Source of the DNA: a virus
Lineage: Duplodnaviria; Caudoviricetes
Virus record (IMG/VR): IMGVR_UViG_3300024331_000152
Location: 1 to 64,000 of that record
Direction: 5' to 3' (one strand)
Length of the DNA: 64,000 bases
Shown here one piece after another: positions 41,132-55,662 of the stretch (positions within the stretch are counted from its first letter, which is position 1; the number at the start of each line of letters is the position of its first letter). Made by a program: the position numbers and the translations under genes. The notes beneath the pieces are model-generated. The model saw nothing but the letters and a program-made list of their open reading frames with translations, had not been told where the DNA came from and made no database searches.

Positions 41132-41207
41132 GTACCGGAAGGTAAAGGCTGGAACCAGCGGTCCGCAAAACCGCTTTTAGCGAGTTGAACTCTCGCCCGG
41201 TACTCCA
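41132..41207 (+). tRNA. tRNA-Cys(GCA)
   Basis: GCGGT-CCGCAAA-ACCGC, acceptor GTACCGG/CCGGTAC, U73-CCA. Confidence 0.75.
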
Positions 41208-44895: not shown

Positions 44896-44970
44896 CGCGG
44901 TCGAGTGGATGGGTCCCACGATGCCCTCATAAGGCATAGATTGCAGGTTCGAACCCTGTGACCGCAACCA
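44896..44970 (+). tRNA. tRNA-fMet-like (CAT)
   Basis: C1:A72 mismatch, ATGCC-CTCATAA-GGCAT, ACCA. Confidence 0.75.
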
Positions 44971-45216: not shown

Positions 45217-45291
45217 GGCTGTGTAGCTCAACCAGAGCACCCGTCTTCAAAACGGTAGGTTGCAGGTATACAACCCCTGTCACAGCCACCA
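45217..45291 (+). tRNA. tRNA-like with UCA (opal) anticodon, atypical D/T loops
   Basis: CCGT-CTTCAAA-ACGG, acceptor GGCTGTG/CACAGCC, ACCA; T-loop TATACAACC non-canonical. Confidence 0.6.
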
Positions 45292-45314
45292 ATTCTCTCG
45301 ACAAAATTTCAAAC

Positions 45315-45390
45315 GGGGTAGTAGCATAGCGGCTAATGCACTTGATTGTCGATCAAGCCATCGCGGGTTCGAGTCCCGTCTGCCCCGCCA
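45315..45390 (+). tRNA. tRNA-Asp(GTC)
   Basis: CTTGA-TTGTCGA-TCAAG, GCCA. Confidence 0.9.
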
Positions 45391-45408
45391 TAATTTTCAG
45401 GAGATTCT

Positions 45409-45621
45409 GTGAGCAAGTGGAGCCCAGTAGGTGAAAACGAAACCGGCTTCACTGAAGGTGGAGACCACGGAGAATTCAACTGTGGAAACTGTGTTCACAT
45501 GAAGGATGGCTGCACGCATCCGATCATGAAGGCGATCTCGCAGCGGCCTCGCAAAAAGAACGGAAACGTTGAGGTAGACGAAGATGACTGCTGCACGTTC
45601 GTACGCAGACCGGGAGACTAG
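45409..45621 (+). CDS. Small Cys-rich (Fe-S/HiPIP-like) protein
   Basis: SD AGGAG, C..C.H....C...CC. Confidence 0.5.
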   Translation: MSKWSPVGENETGFTEGGDHGEFNCGNCVHMKDGCTHPIMKAISQRPRKKNGNVEVDEDDCCTFVRRPGD

Positions 45622-46140
45622 ATGATCTGTCCTGATTGCGACAAAGCGGAGATGGTCGAGACTGAAGTGACGCGCGACTTTAAAGTCGGTCGCAAGGAAC
45701 CTGTCACGTTGTCGGCTACGGCGGTAGTTGAGATCTGCCCAGCGTGTAAGTGTGAACTGCACGGCTGGCAGATGGAGAGAGCGAAGTCGCTCGCGATGTC
45801 TAAATGGATGAAGGAAAACCACAGGGTTGACATTAACCCGCCAGAAGATTTGCGGATCGCTCACGCGGCGTCATCGTTTCACCTCAAACAGCTTGAGCAT
45901 GAAGGTAAGGCAGCATGTTTCTATTGCCTACGTTTCTTCAACATCGAGGAGATTGAGGACTGGATCGACAATGAGCAGACGGCGCTCTGTCCGAAGTGTG
46001 GTATTGACTCCGTGATTCCAGAGACGGACAATGTAACACCAGAGTTCCTAAAGCGCATGCAGCAATATTGGTTTGATGCAGGCGCAGACCTTGCAAAGAA
46101 AGATTGTCAGGAGCCTGCTCCTGCAATGCCGGGAACGTAA
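45622..46140 (+). CDS. Double zinc-ribbon protein
   Basis: MqsA-like CPDC..CPAC N-terminus fused to CFYCL..F...EI..WID...TALCPKCGIDSVI domain. Confidence 0.7.
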   Translation: MICPDCDKAEMVETEVTRDFKVGRKEPVTLSATAVVEICPACKCELHGWQMERAKSLAMSKWMKENHRVDINPPEDLRIAHAASSFHLKQLEHEGKAACFYCLRFFNIEEIEDWIDNEQTALCPKCGIDSVIPETDNVTPEFLKRMQQYWFDAGADLAKKDCQEPAPAMPGT

Positions 46141-46199
46141 TGATGGATAGCGTTCAGGACTGACCTTGCCATCCAACTAACCTTTGGAGATAAAACCCA

Positions 46200-46365
46200 A
46201 TGGAAGTCAAACGGAAAGAAATTGAAACGCTGATCGAAAAGTCAGCTAAAAGCACACGATTCTGGAGACGCTATGCGTTTTTCTCAGGCGGCATGTAATT
46301 GTGCAAATGCCATACGCTGCTTGCTCGACGCAGAACTCGAACAAGCTTGTTCCGGCCCGAAGTAG
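46200..46365 (+). pseudogene. Small phage gene with apparent frameshift at GCTAAAAGC
   Basis: MEVKRKEIETLIEKSAK continues as AHDSGDAMRFSQAACNCANA.. only if one A is skipped. Confidence 0.5.
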
Positions 46366-46368
46366 ACC

Positions 46369-46708
46369 GGTGGTTGCACCCCGCCTCGCCGCGAGGCTAA
46401 GTCGCGGCAGAGATTTAAGCATGTAGAAGGCAACTAATCAGATTTCGGACGTGGGTTCGAATCCCACCGAGTCCACCAATCAGCTAACGCGCCGGGGCGA
46501 AACGCCTTGGTTCAACGAAAGTTCAGCTAAGAGTTAAAGCTGGTCCGTTGGCTGATTTGTGGGCTCGCCAAGGTTTCGACGGGATCAGAAGACGTTGTGC
46601 AGTTCATGCCGAGTGCTGTGGCCTGCGTTAAGGGACACGGAAAAAACAAATGCAGATGCTTCGGCACTGCCGATGGCAGCCTAAAAACTGACGTCTGAGG
46701 GTGGCCGC
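46369..46708 (+). ncRNA. ssrA: Circularly permuted (two-piece) tmRNA
   Basis: T-arm plus CGAGTCC-ACCA ends 46478; hairpin-closed spacer; GGGCTCG..TTCGAC starts 46561 (G3:U70); tag ORF 46652-46684 ADASALPMAA-stop. Confidence 0.9.
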
Positions 46709-46745
46709 AATACTCATCAAAGAACCATGCGGCACAAATACGCTA

Positions 46746-47150
46746 ATGCCTTACAAAGACAAAATTAAGCGTGCAGAGTATTGGAGGAATTATGTAATTG
46801 CCAACCCTCACGTCAAAACCAGAACTAAGACCGACAGGAAGCGCGAGAACGGCGAGGGCTGGGAGATTAAGAACCGCATCCCCTTCAAGATCTCGTGCTG
46901 CGATTGTGGTCTCGTCCATAATCTGGTTATCGTAGCTCCGAATACGAGAAAGGGCGCAGTCCTTGGCATCGCTGCGGAACGAAACGAGCGCGCAACCGGA
47001 CAGAAGCGCAGACATTTAGTGACGAACAAGCCAGAGACGCCTGAGGAGGCGGCGCGCAGACTAGGCGTGTCGAAGAAACGTCTCGAATCAATTCGCGAAA
47101 TTATGTCGCGCCCTGTGTTACGCTCAAAGCGAAAACACTTGAATCCCTAA
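46746..47150 (+). CDS. Hypothetical protein (CCDCGLVH motif)
   Basis: MPYKD start, ISCCDCGLVH. Confidence 0.6.
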   Translation: MPYKDKIKRAEYWRNYVIANPHVKTRTKTDRKRENGEGWEIKNRIPFKISCCDCGLVHNLVIVAPNTRKGAVLGIAAERNERATGQKRRHLVTNKPETPEEAARRLGVSKKRLESIREIMSRPVLRSKRKHLNP

Positions 47151-47187
47151 GGCGTTCAGACCGCGAATCTGAGCGTCTCTTTTTTTC

Positions 47188-47216
47188 TTGACAACAGGCG
47201 CAGAGTTTCGTACCTT
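47188..47216 (+). promoter_or_regulatory. Sigma70 promoter, leaderless transcript
   Basis: TTGACA-17 nt-TACCTT, 6 nt before ATG at 47223. Confidence 0.75.
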
Positions 47217-47222
47217 CTGTTC

Positions 47223-47711
47223 ATGCATTGAATCGCCAACACGCATTCATACGTTTTCGTCCGGTACGATCTCTCCCTCGCACAATCTGTAATCCAGTCG
47301 AGCCATGCTACCCATTCGATGGCTAATGGGCTCTCCCAGAGCCCTGAAGTTCCGCATATCGTTCTGATCGGCGTTCCAGACGTCAAGGCCCTTGAACGGG
47401 TCATTCAAAAACTCCGCGACAATCACATTGAATTTGCTGCCTTCGATGAGCCTGACGATAATCTCGGCTTGACGGCGGTCGCTACTGTTCCTCTCAACGA
47501 AGAGCAGAGACTTGTGTTCCAGAACTACAAGATCTGGACTGAAGAAGAATACTTTTACACGCGCGTAGCTCAGTGGTCAGAGCACTCCGGGAGGTTGACG
47601 GAGAGGTCGGCTGTTCGAATCGGTCCGCGCGTACCATGGGCGGTTCATTCGGTGATGTATCCGGTTCGAATCCGGTATCGCCCACCATGCGCGGTTAGCT
47701 CGACTATGTAG
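47223..47711 (+). CDS. Pth2-like peptidyl-tRNA hydrolase with in-frame UGA at codon 3
   Basis: ATG CAT TGA, then in frame YVFVRYDLSLAQSVIQSSHA...IVLIGV....L.......F.EPD...GLTAVA. Confidence 0.75.
47559..47636 (+). tRNA. tRNA-like element with 9-nt anticodon loop (GGAGGTTGA)
   Basis: Canonical D and T arms, ACGCGCG/CGCGCGT-ACCA; no readable anticodon. Confidence 0.7.
47638..47687 (+). ncRNA. Mini tRNA-like element (acceptor plus T arm only)
   Basis: GGGCGGT/ATCGCCC-ACCA, CCGG-TTCGAAT-CCGG. Confidence 0.65.
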
Positions 47712-47737
47712 AGGGGAAGATCCTCGCCCGCGCTCCA
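47689..47737 (+). ncRNA. Mini tRNA-like element
   Basis: GCGCGG/CCGCGC-TCCA, GAGG-GGAAGAT-CCTC. Confidence 0.5.
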
Positions 47738-47743
47738 ATTCGA

Positions 47744-47819
47744 GCGCTCGTGGCTCAGCGGCAGAGCGCCGGTCTTCAAAACCGGGTCAGCGTGGGTTCG
47801 AACCTCACCGAGCGCTCCA
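47744..47819 (+). tRNA. Opal suppressor tRNA (UCA), Gly-like acceptor identity
   Basis: CCGGT-CTTCAAA-ACCGG, canonical cloverleaf, G1:C72 C2:G71 G3:C70 U73. Confidence 0.85.
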
Positions 47820-54628: not shown

Positions 54629-54646
54629 GTTGTTTGACAAGTTTAT

Positions 54647-54716
54647 AGGGGATGATCTGGGATCGACGAGGTCTCCAAAACCTCACAGCGGAGTTCAATT
54701 CTCCGATCCCCTGCCA
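54647..54716 (+). tRNA. tRNA-Trp(CCA), minimal D arm
   Basis: GAGGT-CTCCAAA-ACCTC, GCCA. Confidence 0.8.
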
Positions 54717-55585: not shown

Positions 55586-55662
55586 GCTGCCGTATCGGCC
55601 TCGCCTCCGAAGCGAGATCCCGTAGGTGGATAAGGCTGGTTCGAATCCAGTCGGCAGCTCCA
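55586..55662 (+). tRNA. D-armless tRNA-Arg(CCG)-like element
   Basis: GCTGCCG/CGGCAGC-TCCA, CTCGC-CTCCGAA-GCGAG, canonical T arm, no D stem. Confidence 0.7.

What the first reader, a model, noticed from the sequence alone, without database searches (positions are those of the whole stretch)
45217..47819. Two UCA-anticodon tRNAs in a genome that still uses UGA as stop
47744-47819 is a clean cloverleaf with G1:C72, C2:G71, G3:C70 and U73, the bacterial tRNA-Gly acceptor identity (UGA=Gly tRNAs are established in SR1/Gracilibacteria). 45217-45291 has the same anticodon loop but aberrant D and T loops. Neither has Sec-tRNA features. Many genes here end in TGA with ATGA overlaps, so this points to conditional suppression or ribosome rescue, not recoding.
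Basis: partly seen in the sequence, partly recalled or inferred. Interest (0 to 1): 0.7.

Follow-up and report, generated by a model that had tools for sequence, protein, structure and literature searches.

The report
Opal-suppressor tRNAs unlocking a stop-gated Pth2 gene
This normal-code 143-kb phage carries two tRNAs that read the stop codon UGA, and their likely target is the neighbouring tRNA-hydrolase-like (Pth2) gene, which opens ATG-CAT-TGA; many other phages keep the same lock-and-key pair with UAG, which gives the puzzling "orphan" suppressor tRNAs of large phages a concrete target.

Summary
Both UCA-anticodon tRNAs exist (47744-47819, Rfam 59.4 bits; 45217-45291, 49.1 bits, odd D and T loops). 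The 143-kb phage genome uses the standard code: TGA ends 65 of 178 long ORFs, and I found no convincing internal TGA in any other gene.

The likely target lies 515 nt upstream of the second tRNA. A Pth2-fold gene begins ATG-CAT-TGA (47223-47231). Homologues show that its conserved N-terminus starts right after the TGA, with no other start codon available.

Across about 140 related loci (53 protein clusters, including cultured jumbo phages), the gene keeps an in-frame stop, usually at codon 3. The stop type matches the neighbouring suppressor tRNA:
- TAG with CUA in at least 28 clusters;
- TGA with UCA in 4 independent cases (this window, L075, L131, Agrobacterium phage Atu_ph07);
- no mismatched pair.

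So these tRNAs are the rarer opal version of a conserved module in which a suppressor tRNA gates a Pth2 gene.

The glycine identity and ribosome rescue are not.

I found no publication describing this link. This scan's own notes report the same module many times on other DNA. Charging, the inserted amino acid and the purpose of the gate remain untested.

The parts
45217..45291 (+). tRNA(UCA) copy 1: opal-suppressor candidate with a short D loop and an enlarged T loop, A73, encoded CCA. It lies in the upstream tRNA-Met / tRNA-Asp / tmRNA operon.
   Evidence: Rfam tRNA 49.1 bits. Found by an acceptor-stem plus CCA scan. Cloverleaf minimum-energy fold, z = -2.7. Up to 76% identical to CUA suppressors of relatives (L082, L096).
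47744..47819 (+). tRNA(UCA) copy 2: canonical cloverleaf, U73, encoded CCA. Opal-suppressor candidate downstream of the gated gene on the same strand.
   Evidence: ARAGORN. Rfam 59.4 bits. 77-81% identical to CUA suppressors L028, L081, L031 and L099. 20 of 21 helix pairs show compensatory changes in the alignment (22 suppressor tRNAs plus three of the phage's own Gly/Thr tRNAs).
47150..47178 (+). Terminator-like hairpin with a T run that closes the upstream operon.
   Evidence: Consensus scan.
47189..47217 (+). Promoter-like TTGACA, 17-nt spacer, TACCTT, ending 5 nt before the ATG. This suggests a leaderless or near-leaderless mRNA (inferred).
   Evidence: Read from the sequence. The -10 hexamer is too weak for the consensus scan. 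A similar TTGACA..GGCGCAGAGT.. element stands before the homologue in L001.
47223..47231 (+). ATG-CAT-TGA: start codon, His codon and the in-frame opal codon (47229-47231) that gates the gene. The next codon is ATC.
   Evidence: Homologues carry M-X-stop at the same place.
47232..47558 (+). Body of the Pth2-fold hydrolase-like gene. The frame stays open through the tRNA-like elements to the TAG at 47712-47714.
   Evidence: PHROG 3668 'hydrolase' matches residues 7-95. AF2 pLDDT 85.4. The ten best Foldseek matches are Pth2-family chains or unnamed structural-genomics proteins, TM 0.72-0.76. Profile against PDB Pth2 24bt_A, E = 0.004. Full-length homologues P0002-P0007 cover the region upstream of Met33.
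47559..47636 (+). tRNA-like element called tRNA-Thr(GGU) with a 9-nt anticodon loop GGAGGUUGA. The open frame of the Pth2-like gene runs into it.
   Evidence: ARAGORN. Rfam 51.1 bits with a 9-nt loop. Homologous ORFs in relatives also run into a tRNA-like element.
47638..47687 (+). CCA-ending minihelix of about 50 nt: acceptor stem plus T arm, no anticodon arm.
   Evidence: Sequence, fold. Similar elements follow the gene in L001-L003.
47689..47738 (+). Second CCA-ending minihelix, carrying the conserved GCTYGACNATGTAG motif.
   Evidence: Sequence. The motif recurs behind the homologous gene in L001-L003.

Best explanation
The two UCA tRNAs are opal-suppressor tRNAs. At least one dedicated target is the in-frame UGA at codon 3 of the adjacent Pth2-fold hydrolase-like gene (ATG-CAT-TGA-ATC..., 47223 onward). 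That gene is probably co-transcribed with the second tRNA.

Proposed mechanism: ribosomes start at the ATG and meet UGA after two codons. Without a UGA-reading tRNA, release factor 2 ends translation or the dipeptidyl-tRNA drops off. The full Pth2-like protein is made only when the phage's own charged tRNA(UCA) wins that competition. The enzyme's output is thereby tied to suppressor activity, as a gate or feedback sensor comparable to the in-frame UGA of prfB.

The rest of the phage keeps UGA as a normal stop, so suppression must be weak or depend on context.

Shown here:
- the tRNAs are real;
- the genome uses the standard code;
- the early stop is conserved, in frame, and has no alternative start;
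- the protein has the Pth2 fold;
- stop type and anticodon change together across many lineages.

Inferred: the tRNAs are expressed and charged, readthrough occurs, the gene and tRNA share a transcript, and the gate has the purpose proposed.
For: 1. Conserved N-terminus. The N-terminus of the protein family lies upstream of the first internal Met and starts directly after the TGA. PHROG 3668 aligns from residue 7. Homologues P0002-P0007 and P0009 have ordinary starts covering that stretch. There is no ATG, GTG or TTG between the TGA and Met33.

2. Conservation of the early stop. In 53 protein clusters (80% identity) from IMG/VR, JGI and Logan contigs and cultured phages, 41 keep an early in-frame stop after an ATG, at codon 3 in 24 of them.

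3. Covariation of stop and anticodon.
- Early TAG with a CUA tRNA within 4-5 kb: 28 clusters.
- Early TAG with no suppressor seen in the flank: 11 clusters.
- Early TGA with UCA: this window and L075.
- L131: MES-TGA with two UCA tRNAs, while its sister loci L119, L122 and L133 have TAG with CUA.
- Cultured Atu_ph07: a canonical PF01981 gene (73.7 bits) reading MIGEHF-TGA, with the GenBank CDS truncated. Its only suppressor is UCA (PMC6102473).
- No mismatched pair was found. With 28 and 3 matched pairs, the exact chance of this perfect sorting is about 2e-4 (my own arithmetic, not a tool result).
- Clusters that clearly lack an early stop (L010-13, L022) have no suppressor nearby. Six further clusters were scored 'no early stop' although a CUA or UUA tRNA lies nearby; these are fused, ATG-after-stop or unclear forms (see the Against line).

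4. Orthology of the tRNAs. tRNA 47744 is 77-81% identical to CUA suppressors of relatives. 20 of 21 helix pairs show compensatory change. So the anticodon switched while the tRNA body was kept.

5. Context of the stop. The base after the early stop is a purine in 35 of 41 clusters, against 56% at ordinary gene ends, and U occurs once. This fits selection for readthrough (context rules from my own knowledge of E. coli work).

6. Fold. pLDDT 85.4. The best Foldseek hits are Pth2-family chains, including MJ0051, Bit1, AF2095, PH1539 and S. solfataricus Pth2.

7. No rival target in this genome. No other gene shows a convincing early or internal TGA.
Against: - Nothing is experimental: expression, processing, charging and readthrough are all untested.
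- TGA ends 37% of the phage's own long ORFs, so an efficient suppressor should be costly.
- Copy 1 (45217) has aberrant D and T loops and may be impaired.
- The codon after the stop is usually ATT, ATC or GTN. Reinitiation at a near-cognate codon after a 2-codon mini-ORF is therefore not excluded.
- 11 TAG clusters show no suppressor within the sequence fetched.
- Six clusters were scored 'no early stop' although a CUA or UUA tRNA lies nearby: L025 and L094 (an ATG follows the TAG), L101 and L108 (fused N-terminal domain), L123 (unclear) and L102 (UUA tRNA). I did not resolve these.
- Pfam PF01981 does not match this protein. In the one PDB alignment, Gln residues stand where the solved Pth2 has a Gly-Lys-Lys motif that I take to hold its catalytic Lys, so the enzymatic activity may differ.
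- The gene has no stop codon before the downstream tRNA-like elements, which complicates any simple expression model.
Confidence: 0.7

Rival explanations
1. ATG-CAT-TGA is a separate two-codon mini-ORF, like a lambda bar minigene. The Pth2-like protein would then be made by reinitiation at a near-cognate codon (ATC here), and the suppressor tRNAs would serve some other purpose.
For: The codon after the stop is ATT, ATC or GTN in most lineages. Two-codon minigenes are known to cause peptidyl-tRNA drop-off that Pth relieves (own knowledge), which would make functional sense next to a Pth-like gene.
Against: Reinitiation would not need the stop type to match the tRNA anticodon, yet 28 TAG/CUA and 4 TGA/UCA pairs occur with no mismatch. 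The stop is always in frame with the Pth2 ORF, including forms with 8-12 codons before it. GTA, GTC and GTT are not known bacterial start codons (own knowledge).
Confidence: 0.12
2. The tRNAs act mainly elsewhere, for example by extending some TGA-terminated phage or host proteins, or by countering a tRNA-directed host defence. The early stop in the Pth2 gene would then be only a secondary sensor or passenger.
For: Two suppressor copies are kept. TGA ends 65 ORFs that could in principle be extended. Published work on XacN1 and Atu_ph07 assumed such targets.
Against: I found no downstream in-frame extension with coding signal in this genome. The XacN1 authors found no similarity after amber stops. 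The only feature that follows the anticodon across lineages is the Pth2 early stop. This reading is compatible with the best explanation rather than opposed to it.
Confidence: 0.1
3. Partial or stage-specific recoding: UGA read as Trp or Gly (code 4 or 25) in part of the genome, as in recoded gut phages.
For: Phage-encoded suppressor tRNAs are the hallmark of recoded phages (bioRxiv 10.1101/2021.08.26.457843, listed). Reading TGA as sense raises ORF coverage at 110-120 kb from 0.66 to 0.91.
Against: Any two-stop code lengthens random ORFs in the same way: TAG-sense and TAA-sense give similar gains. The candidate TGA junctions are ordinary gene boundaries with a start and Shine-Dalgarno sequence, or non-coding frames. 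64 ORFs of 250 codons or more are intact under code 11. TGA is the commonest stop. The genome has no release-factor gene.
Confidence: 0.04
4. Decayed or non-decoding tRNA-like genes (pseudo-tRNAs or decoys), next to a Pth2 gene inactivated by a nonsense mutation.
For: Copy 1 has aberrant loops. The locus is full of aberrant tRNA-like elements: a 9-nt anticodon loop and minihelices.
Against: The early stop is conserved in more than 40 clusters while the downstream ORF stays intact and conserved. The tRNA stems keep their pairing through compensatory changes. Copy 2 is a canonical cloverleaf (59.4 bits).
Confidence: 0.04

Closest known systems
Orphan suppressor tRNAs of standard-code jumbo phages (XacN1: two CUA tRNAs; Atu_ph07: one UCA tRNA)
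   Same: Large phages with big tRNA sets, the standard code, one or two suppressor tRNAs and a PTH2-type gene. In both I found the same lock. XacN1 ORF364 is preceded in frame by ATG-AAG-TAG. An Atu_ph07 PF01981 gene has TGA at codon 7.
   Different: The papers report no target. The XacN1 authors searched only downstream of gene-terminal ambers and found nothing (PMC5852040). The Atu_ph07 authors assumed many targets (PMC6102473). The window phage is smaller (143 kb) and uncultured, has two UCA copies, and its Pth2-like gene is too divergent for Pfam.
Stop-codon-recoded phages with suppressor tRNAs (code 15 TAG=Gln, code 4 TGA=Trp: crAss-like, Lak and others)
   Same: A phage-encoded suppressor tRNA reads a stop codon inside phage genes. 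Expression of those genes then depends on the phage tRNA.
   Different: There, many (mostly late) genes carry in-frame stops and the code is effectively changed. Here one gene carries one early stop, and TGA remains the commonest terminator.
prfB (release factor 2) autoregulation through an early in-frame UGA
   Same: An early in-frame stop acts as a sensor, and competition at the A site sets the output of a translation factor. This is a likeness in how it works.
   Different: prfB escapes by +1 frameshifting and senses its own product. Here escape would be by a dedicated tRNA. Whether the Pth2-like protein feeds back on that tRNA is unknown. No homology.
PTH2 of jumbo phages and the archaeal/eukaryotic Pth2 family (PF01981; MJ0051 2zv3, Bit1 1q7s, AF2095 3erj)
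   Same: Same fold, TM 0.72-0.76. [quoted passage not shown]
   Different: Those papers do not mention stop codons or suppressor tRNAs (0 occurrences). The window protein misses the Pfam cut-off. In the one PDB alignment, Gln residues stand where the solved Pth2 has its Gly-Lys-Lys motif.
Lambda bar minigenes (AUG-AUA-stop) and peptidyl-tRNA drop-off relieved by Pth (own knowledge)
   Same: A two-codon ORF ending in a stop, functionally linked to peptidyl-tRNA hydrolase activity.
   Different: bar minigenes are not fused in frame to a Pth gene and involve no suppressor tRNA.
tRNA-Gly(UCA) of SR1/Gracilibacteria (code 25)
   Same: UCA anticodon on a type-I tRNA with G1:C72, C2:G71, G3:C70 and U73.
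   Different: In those bacteria UGA is sense genome-wide, which is not so here. The acceptor features are not conserved in this tRNA's orthologues.

Membership tests
Suppressor-tRNA-gated Pth2 module (recurrent in this scan's notes; no publication found) | Pth2-fold gene | tested here: met
   AF2 pLDDT 85.4. The best Foldseek hits are Pth2-family chains, TM 0.72-0.76. Profile against PDB Pth2, E = 0.004.
Suppressor-tRNA-gated Pth2 module (recurrent in this scan's notes; no publication found) | In-frame stop within the first few codons after an ATG, with no alternative start before the conserved N-terminus | tested here: met
   ATG-CAT-TGA at 47223-47231. The conserved N-terminus follows directly. 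The next start codon is Met33.
Suppressor-tRNA-gated Pth2 module (recurrent in this scan's notes; no publication found) | Suppressor tRNA nearby whose anticodon matches that stop | tested here: met
   tRNA(UCA) 515 nt downstream and a second 2 kb upstream. Across lineages the pairs are TAG/CUA or TGA/UCA with no mismatch.
Suppressor-tRNA-gated Pth2 module (recurrent in this scan's notes; no publication found) | Rest of the genome uses that stop codon as a terminator | tested here: met
   65 of 178 long ORFs end in TGA. No other convincing in-frame TGA.
Suppressor-tRNA-gated Pth2 module (recurrent in this scan's notes; no publication found) | Actual readthrough of the stop by the tRNA | not testable with these tools
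A reporter assay or proteomics is needed.
Pth2 / PTH2 (Pfam PF01981) | Match to the family HMM above its cut-off | tested here: not met
   No hit at E up to 10 for the protein or in the six-frame search of the genome.
Pth2 / PTH2 (Pfam PF01981) | Pth2 alpha/beta fold | tested here: met
Pth2 / PTH2 (Pfam PF01981) | Catalytic residues (Lys of the Gly-Lys motif and the Asp/Thr of the D-x-G-x-T motif, per S. solfataricus work; own knowledge) | tested here: inconclusive
   In the alignment, Gln residues stand opposite the Gly-Lys-Lys of the solved Pth2. Invariant E73, D75 and T85 may correspond to the acidic/Thr motif. I made no structural superposition of side chains.
tRNA-Gly(UCA), code 25 | UGA used as a sense codon genome-wide | tested here: not met
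tRNA-Gly(UCA), code 25 | Bacterial Gly identity set (G1:C72, C2:G71, G3:C70, U73, C35, C36) | tested here: inconclusive
   The acceptor set and C35 are present in 47744. C36 is A. The set is not conserved in orthologues. The second copy (45217) has G1:C72, G2:C71, C3:G70 and A73.
tRNA-Sec | 8/5 (or 9/4) acceptor/T stems, long variable arm, extended D stem; selA/selB/SECIS context | tested here: not met
   7/5 stems and a 5-6 nt variable region. Rfam tRNA-Sec does not match either gene. selA, selB and SECIS were not searched.
Stop-codon-recoded phage (code 4) | Many genes with in-frame TGA that are whole only under the alternative code | tested here: not met

The most novel reading that the evidence does not exclude
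The suppressor tRNA and the stop-locked Pth2 gene form a self-contained sensor of termination against suppression capacity, working like prfB. Pth2 output would rise with suppressor activity or with release-factor shortage. The Pth2-like enzyme would in turn act on the ester of the suppressor's (or dropped-off) peptidyl- or aminoacyl-tRNA. That would let a standard-code phage hold readthrough at a set low level. The amber-to-opal switches, in which gene and both tRNAs change together, would show that the pair co-evolves as a unit. This would explain the long-puzzling orphan suppressor tRNAs of large phages.
Probability: 0.25. Interest if true: 0.85.

Novelty: new variant of a known kind. Interest (0 to 1): 0.74.

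Why it matters
Suppressor tRNAs in phages that keep the standard code have had no known target. The XacN1 authors say so explicitly.

A conserved one-gene target that follows the tRNA's anticodon gives a testable function. It also explains why gene callers miss or truncate this Pth2 gene in GenBank records of cultured phages. It points to a translation-control device built from a tRNA and a stop codon.

Several cultured phage-host pairs carry the module (Atu_ph07 for UGA; ME3, Arash, GAP32, RsoM2USA and XacN1 for UAG), so the idea can be tested directly.

The opal version seen here is the rarer form. It supplies part of the covariation evidence.

Tried and rejected
- Genome-wide recoding. ORF coverage under TGA-, TAG- or TAA-sense codes rises about equally, so the gain is uninformative.
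- Codon-usage scoring of sequence on both sides of every internal TGA gave only ordinary gene junctions or non-coding frames. The score separates coding from non-coding weakly (mean 0.20, sd 0.15 per codon).
- A dedicated scan for other ATG-(1-6 codons)-TGA openings found nothing convincing.
- Pfam on the neighbouring ORFs gave no useful hit.
- DNA similarity to known phages found only a tRNA-Asp match to Streptomyces phages.
- Nearest-neighbour comparison to assign an amino-acid identity to the tRNAs gave only a weak lead: Lys(UUU) at 78%, with Gly not among the nearest. No isotype models were available.
- The profile of this protein family found nothing in Atu_ph07; the Pfam PTH2 model did.
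- DNA for homologue P0002 could not be fetched.
- No release-factor gene in the genome.
- I sent no complex-prediction job: a tRNA-protein question does not fit that tool.


Full report
**1. The observation**

The window is the first 64 kb of a 142,794-bp IMG/VR virus record with CheckV completeness 100%. All of the phage's tRNA genes lie between 41 and 56.6 kb.
- ARAGORN finds 35 tRNAs and a permuted tmRNA.
- A scan for 7-bp acceptor stems followed by N-CCA adds aberrant ones that ARAGORN misses: Cys(GCA) 41132-41207, Trp(CCA) 54647-54716, an Arg(CCG)-like gene 55586-55662, and the first UCA tRNA.

Both UCA tRNAs are real.
- 47744-47819 scores 59.4 bits with Rfam's tRNA model. It is a normal type-I cloverleaf with the loop CUUCAAA, U73 and an encoded CCA.
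- 45217-45291 scores 49.1 bits. It has the same loop, a 5-nt D loop without GG and an enlarged T loop.
- Neither has tRNA-Sec architecture. ARAGORN's 'SeC' label reflects only the anticodon.

The phage also carries ordinary Trp(CCA) and Cys(GCA) tRNAs, so the UCA genes are extra and are not replacements.

**2. The genetic code**

Under code 11, ORFs of 80 aa or more cover 86% of the genome. Of 178 non-overlapping long ORFs, 65 end in TGA, 61 in TAA and 52 in TAG. Eleven of the TGAs overlap the next start.

Reading TGA as sense lengthens ORFs no more than reading TAG or TAA as sense does. The TGAs with the best coding signal on both sides are ordinary gene junctions or non-coding frames.

**3. 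The target**

A note from another first-stage reading of this same stretch pointed to an in-frame UGA at codon 3 of the gene just upstream of the second tRNA. I tested that.
- The frame opens ATG-CAT-TGA-ATC at 47223.
- PHROG 3668 ('hydrolase') aligns from residue 7 of the read-through product, 26 residues upstream of the first internal Met.
- Full-length homologues from metagenomes (P0002-P0007, P0009) have ordinary starts and cover that stretch. Many others were called by gene finders only from the internal Met.
- No ATG, GTG or TTG lies between the TGA and Met33.

The conserved N-terminus can therefore be made only by reading through the TGA or by an unorthodox start.

**4. The protein**

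An AlphaFold model built from 24 homologues has mean pLDDT 85.4. The best Foldseek PDB hits are Pth2-family chains (MJ0051, Bit1, AF2095, PH1539, TA0108, S. solfataricus Pth2) at TM 0.72-0.76. A profile search of PDB sequences gives a Pth2 at E = 0.004.

Pfam PF01981 does not match. In the alignment, Gln residues stand where the solved Pth2 has its Gly-Lys-Lys motif. I therefore call it a Pth2-fold, hydrolase-like protein. It is not a proven peptidyl-tRNA hydrolase.

**5. Relatives**

Two scans of IMG/VR, one of JGI metagenomes, look-ups of exact proteins and a tblastn of cultured phages gave about 140 loci.

Nearly all show the same opening: ATG, one to a few codons, then an in-frame stop, then the conserved N-terminus. 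Examples are MR-TAG, MT-TAG, MH-TAG, ML-TAG and MRKAIGDL-TAG.

Cultured phages have it too:
- Yersinia fHe-Yen9-03: MSH-TAG.
- Cronobacter GAP32: MAQ-TAG.
- Acinetobacter ME3: MT-TAG, with an annotated CTA tRNA 500 bp away.
- Ralstonia RsoM2USA: ML-TAG.
- Salmonella Arash: ML-TAG. A neighbouring tRNA annotated as Phe has the anticodon CTA.
- XacN1: ORF364 is a longer fusion, but ATG-AAG-TAG stands in frame four codons before its annotated start.

GenBank records leave these genes out or truncate them.

**6. Covariation**

I clustered the proteins at 80% identity into 53 clusters.

| Early stop in the gene | Suppressor tRNA within the flank | Clusters |
|---|---|---|
| TAG | CUA (two clusters also have a UUA) | 28 |
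| TAG | none seen | 11 |
| TGA | UCA | 2 (this window, L075) |
| none clear | none | 6 |
| none clear | CUA or UUA | 6 |

The last row covers fused forms, forms with an ATG after the stop, and unclear forms. I did not resolve these.

Loci that my first pattern missed add two more cases:
- L131: MES-TGA with two UCA tRNAs, while its close relatives L119, L122 and L133 have TAG with CUA.
- Atu_ph07: one of three PF01981 genes reads MIGEHF-TGA-I... and its GenBank CDS is truncated. The paper reports a single suppressor, UCA.

That makes four independent TGA/UCA pairs and no mismatch.

In the window both suppressor genes carry UCA. The second is 77-81% identical to CUA suppressors of relatives. 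In an alignment of 22 suppressor tRNAs plus three of the phage's own Gly/Thr tRNAs, 20 of 21 helix pairs show compensatory changes. The anticodons and the codon therefore changed together on a conserved scaffold.

**7. Context of the stop**

- The base after the early stop is a purine in 35 of 41 clusters and U once. At ordinary gene ends of this genome, purines make up 56%.
- The next codon is Ile or Val in 27 of 41.
- The stop is codon 3 in 24 of 41.
- The window's ATG-CAT-TGA-ATC is the modal form.

A purine at +4 favours suppression over termination in E. coli (own knowledge).

**8. How it probably works**

A terminator-like hairpin (47150-47178) closes the upstream operon. TTGACA, 17 nt and TACCTT then stand 5 nt before the ATG. 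No terminator was found between the gene and tRNA 47744. Together this suggests one transcript carrying the gene, a tRNA-like element, two minihelices and the suppressor. This is inferred.

Ribosomes meet UGA after two codons. RF2, drop-off and tRNA(UCA) then compete. Only the tRNA gives full-length protein.

Why a phage would build this is open. It could be:
- a gate that ties the enzyme to working phage tRNAs;
- a sensor of termination capacity, like prfB;
- a feedback loop in which the enzyme restrains the suppressor.

Global suppression must stay low, because TGA ends a third of the phage's own genes.

**9. Amino-acid identity**

The discriminator is mostly A, and pair 3:70 varies. Those features also occur in this phage's Thr tRNAs. 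C36 is missing. The nearest non-suppressor tRNA is a Lys(UUU) of a related phage. The identity cannot be settled here.

**10. Prior knowledge**

PTH2 genes in jumbo phages are known (PMC7824862, PMC3622015), as are suppressor tRNAs in standard-code phages (PMC5852040, PMC6102473). The papers I could search do not link them.

This scan's own notes describe the same module on many other genomes, with the same covariation. I re-derived the evidence independently here. The window adds a clear opal case with both tRNA copies switched.

**11. What is unexplained**

- The Pth2-like frame has no stop before the tRNA-like element at 47559 and stays open to 47711. Homologous ORFs of the soil clade also run into a tRNA-like sequence.
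- That element has a 9-nt anticodon loop.
- Two CCA-ending minihelices follow it. Similar ones occur in L001-L003.

Whether processing of these elements leaves a non-stop mRNA for the phage's own tmRNA is speculation.

Noticed in passing
window 47232-47714: The Pth2-like reading frame has no stop codon before the downstream tRNA-like gene. It stays open through that gene and two minihelices to the TAG at 47712-47714. Homologous ORFs in relatives also end with residues translated from a tRNA-like sequence. If the tRNA-like elements are processed out, the message would lack a stop codon.
   Followed up: partly
window 47559-47636: A tRNA called Thr(GGU) has a 9-nt anticodon loop GGAGGUUGA with a Shine-Dalgarno-like core. 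The matching element in L001 has an even larger loop. It is unlikely to be a normal decoder.
   Followed up: partly
window 47638-47687 and 47689-47738: Two CCA-ending minihelices of about 50 nt: acceptor stem, T arm and a D-like stretch, no anticodon arm. The motif GCTYGACNATGTAG recurs behind the homologous gene in L001-L003.
   Followed up: partly
window 41132-41207, 54647-54716, 55586-55662: Aberrant tRNAs that ARAGORN misses: Cys(GCA) with U73; Trp(CCA) with A1:U72 and G73; and an Arg(CCG)-like gene with a long extra arm. Rfam's tRNA model matches none of them at the thresholds used; 54646-54713 gives only a weak tRNA-Sec hit (23.9 bits). With these added, only Glu and Phe tRNAs are missing from the set.
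   Followed up: partly
window 46419-46684 (ARAGORN 46386-46775): Phage-encoded circularly permuted (two-piece) tmRNA, Rfam tmRNA_permuted 78.4 bits, tag ADASALPMAA. It lies in the operon that holds the first UCA tRNA.
   Followed up: no
window 44896-44970: tRNA-Met with a C1/A72 mismatch at the top of the acceptor stem, the mark of a bacterial initiator tRNA (alignment; interpretation from own knowledge).
   Followed up: no
L051 (Xanthomonas phage XacN1, AP018399.1, about 243744-243755): ATG-AAG-TAG stands in frame four codons before the annotated start of ORF364, whose C-terminal part is the Pth2-like domain. This may be the target that the XacN1 paper could not find for its two CUA suppressor tRNAs.
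   Followed up: partly
L139/L141 (Agrobacterium phage Atu_ph07, MF403008.1, 198552-198990, minus strand): A canonical PF01981 gene (73.7 bits) is preceded in frame by ATG-ATT-GGC-GAA-CAC-TTT-TGA. The GenBank CDS AUZ95035.1 starts at an internal Met inside the domain. The phage's only suppressor tRNA is UCA (PMC6102473).
   Followed up: yes
L052-L056 (fHe-Yen9-03, GAP32, ME3, RsoM2USA, Arash): GenBank annotation misses or truncates the stop-gated Pth2-like gene in these cultured phages. In Arash a tRNA annotated as Phe has the anticodon CTA according to ARAGORN.
   Followed up: partly
L020/L045/L088, L074, L102: Some relatives carry a UUA (ochre) tRNA beside CUA copies, or alone (L102, where I saw no early stop). 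This could be an intermediate on the path between the amber and opal versions.
   Followed up: no
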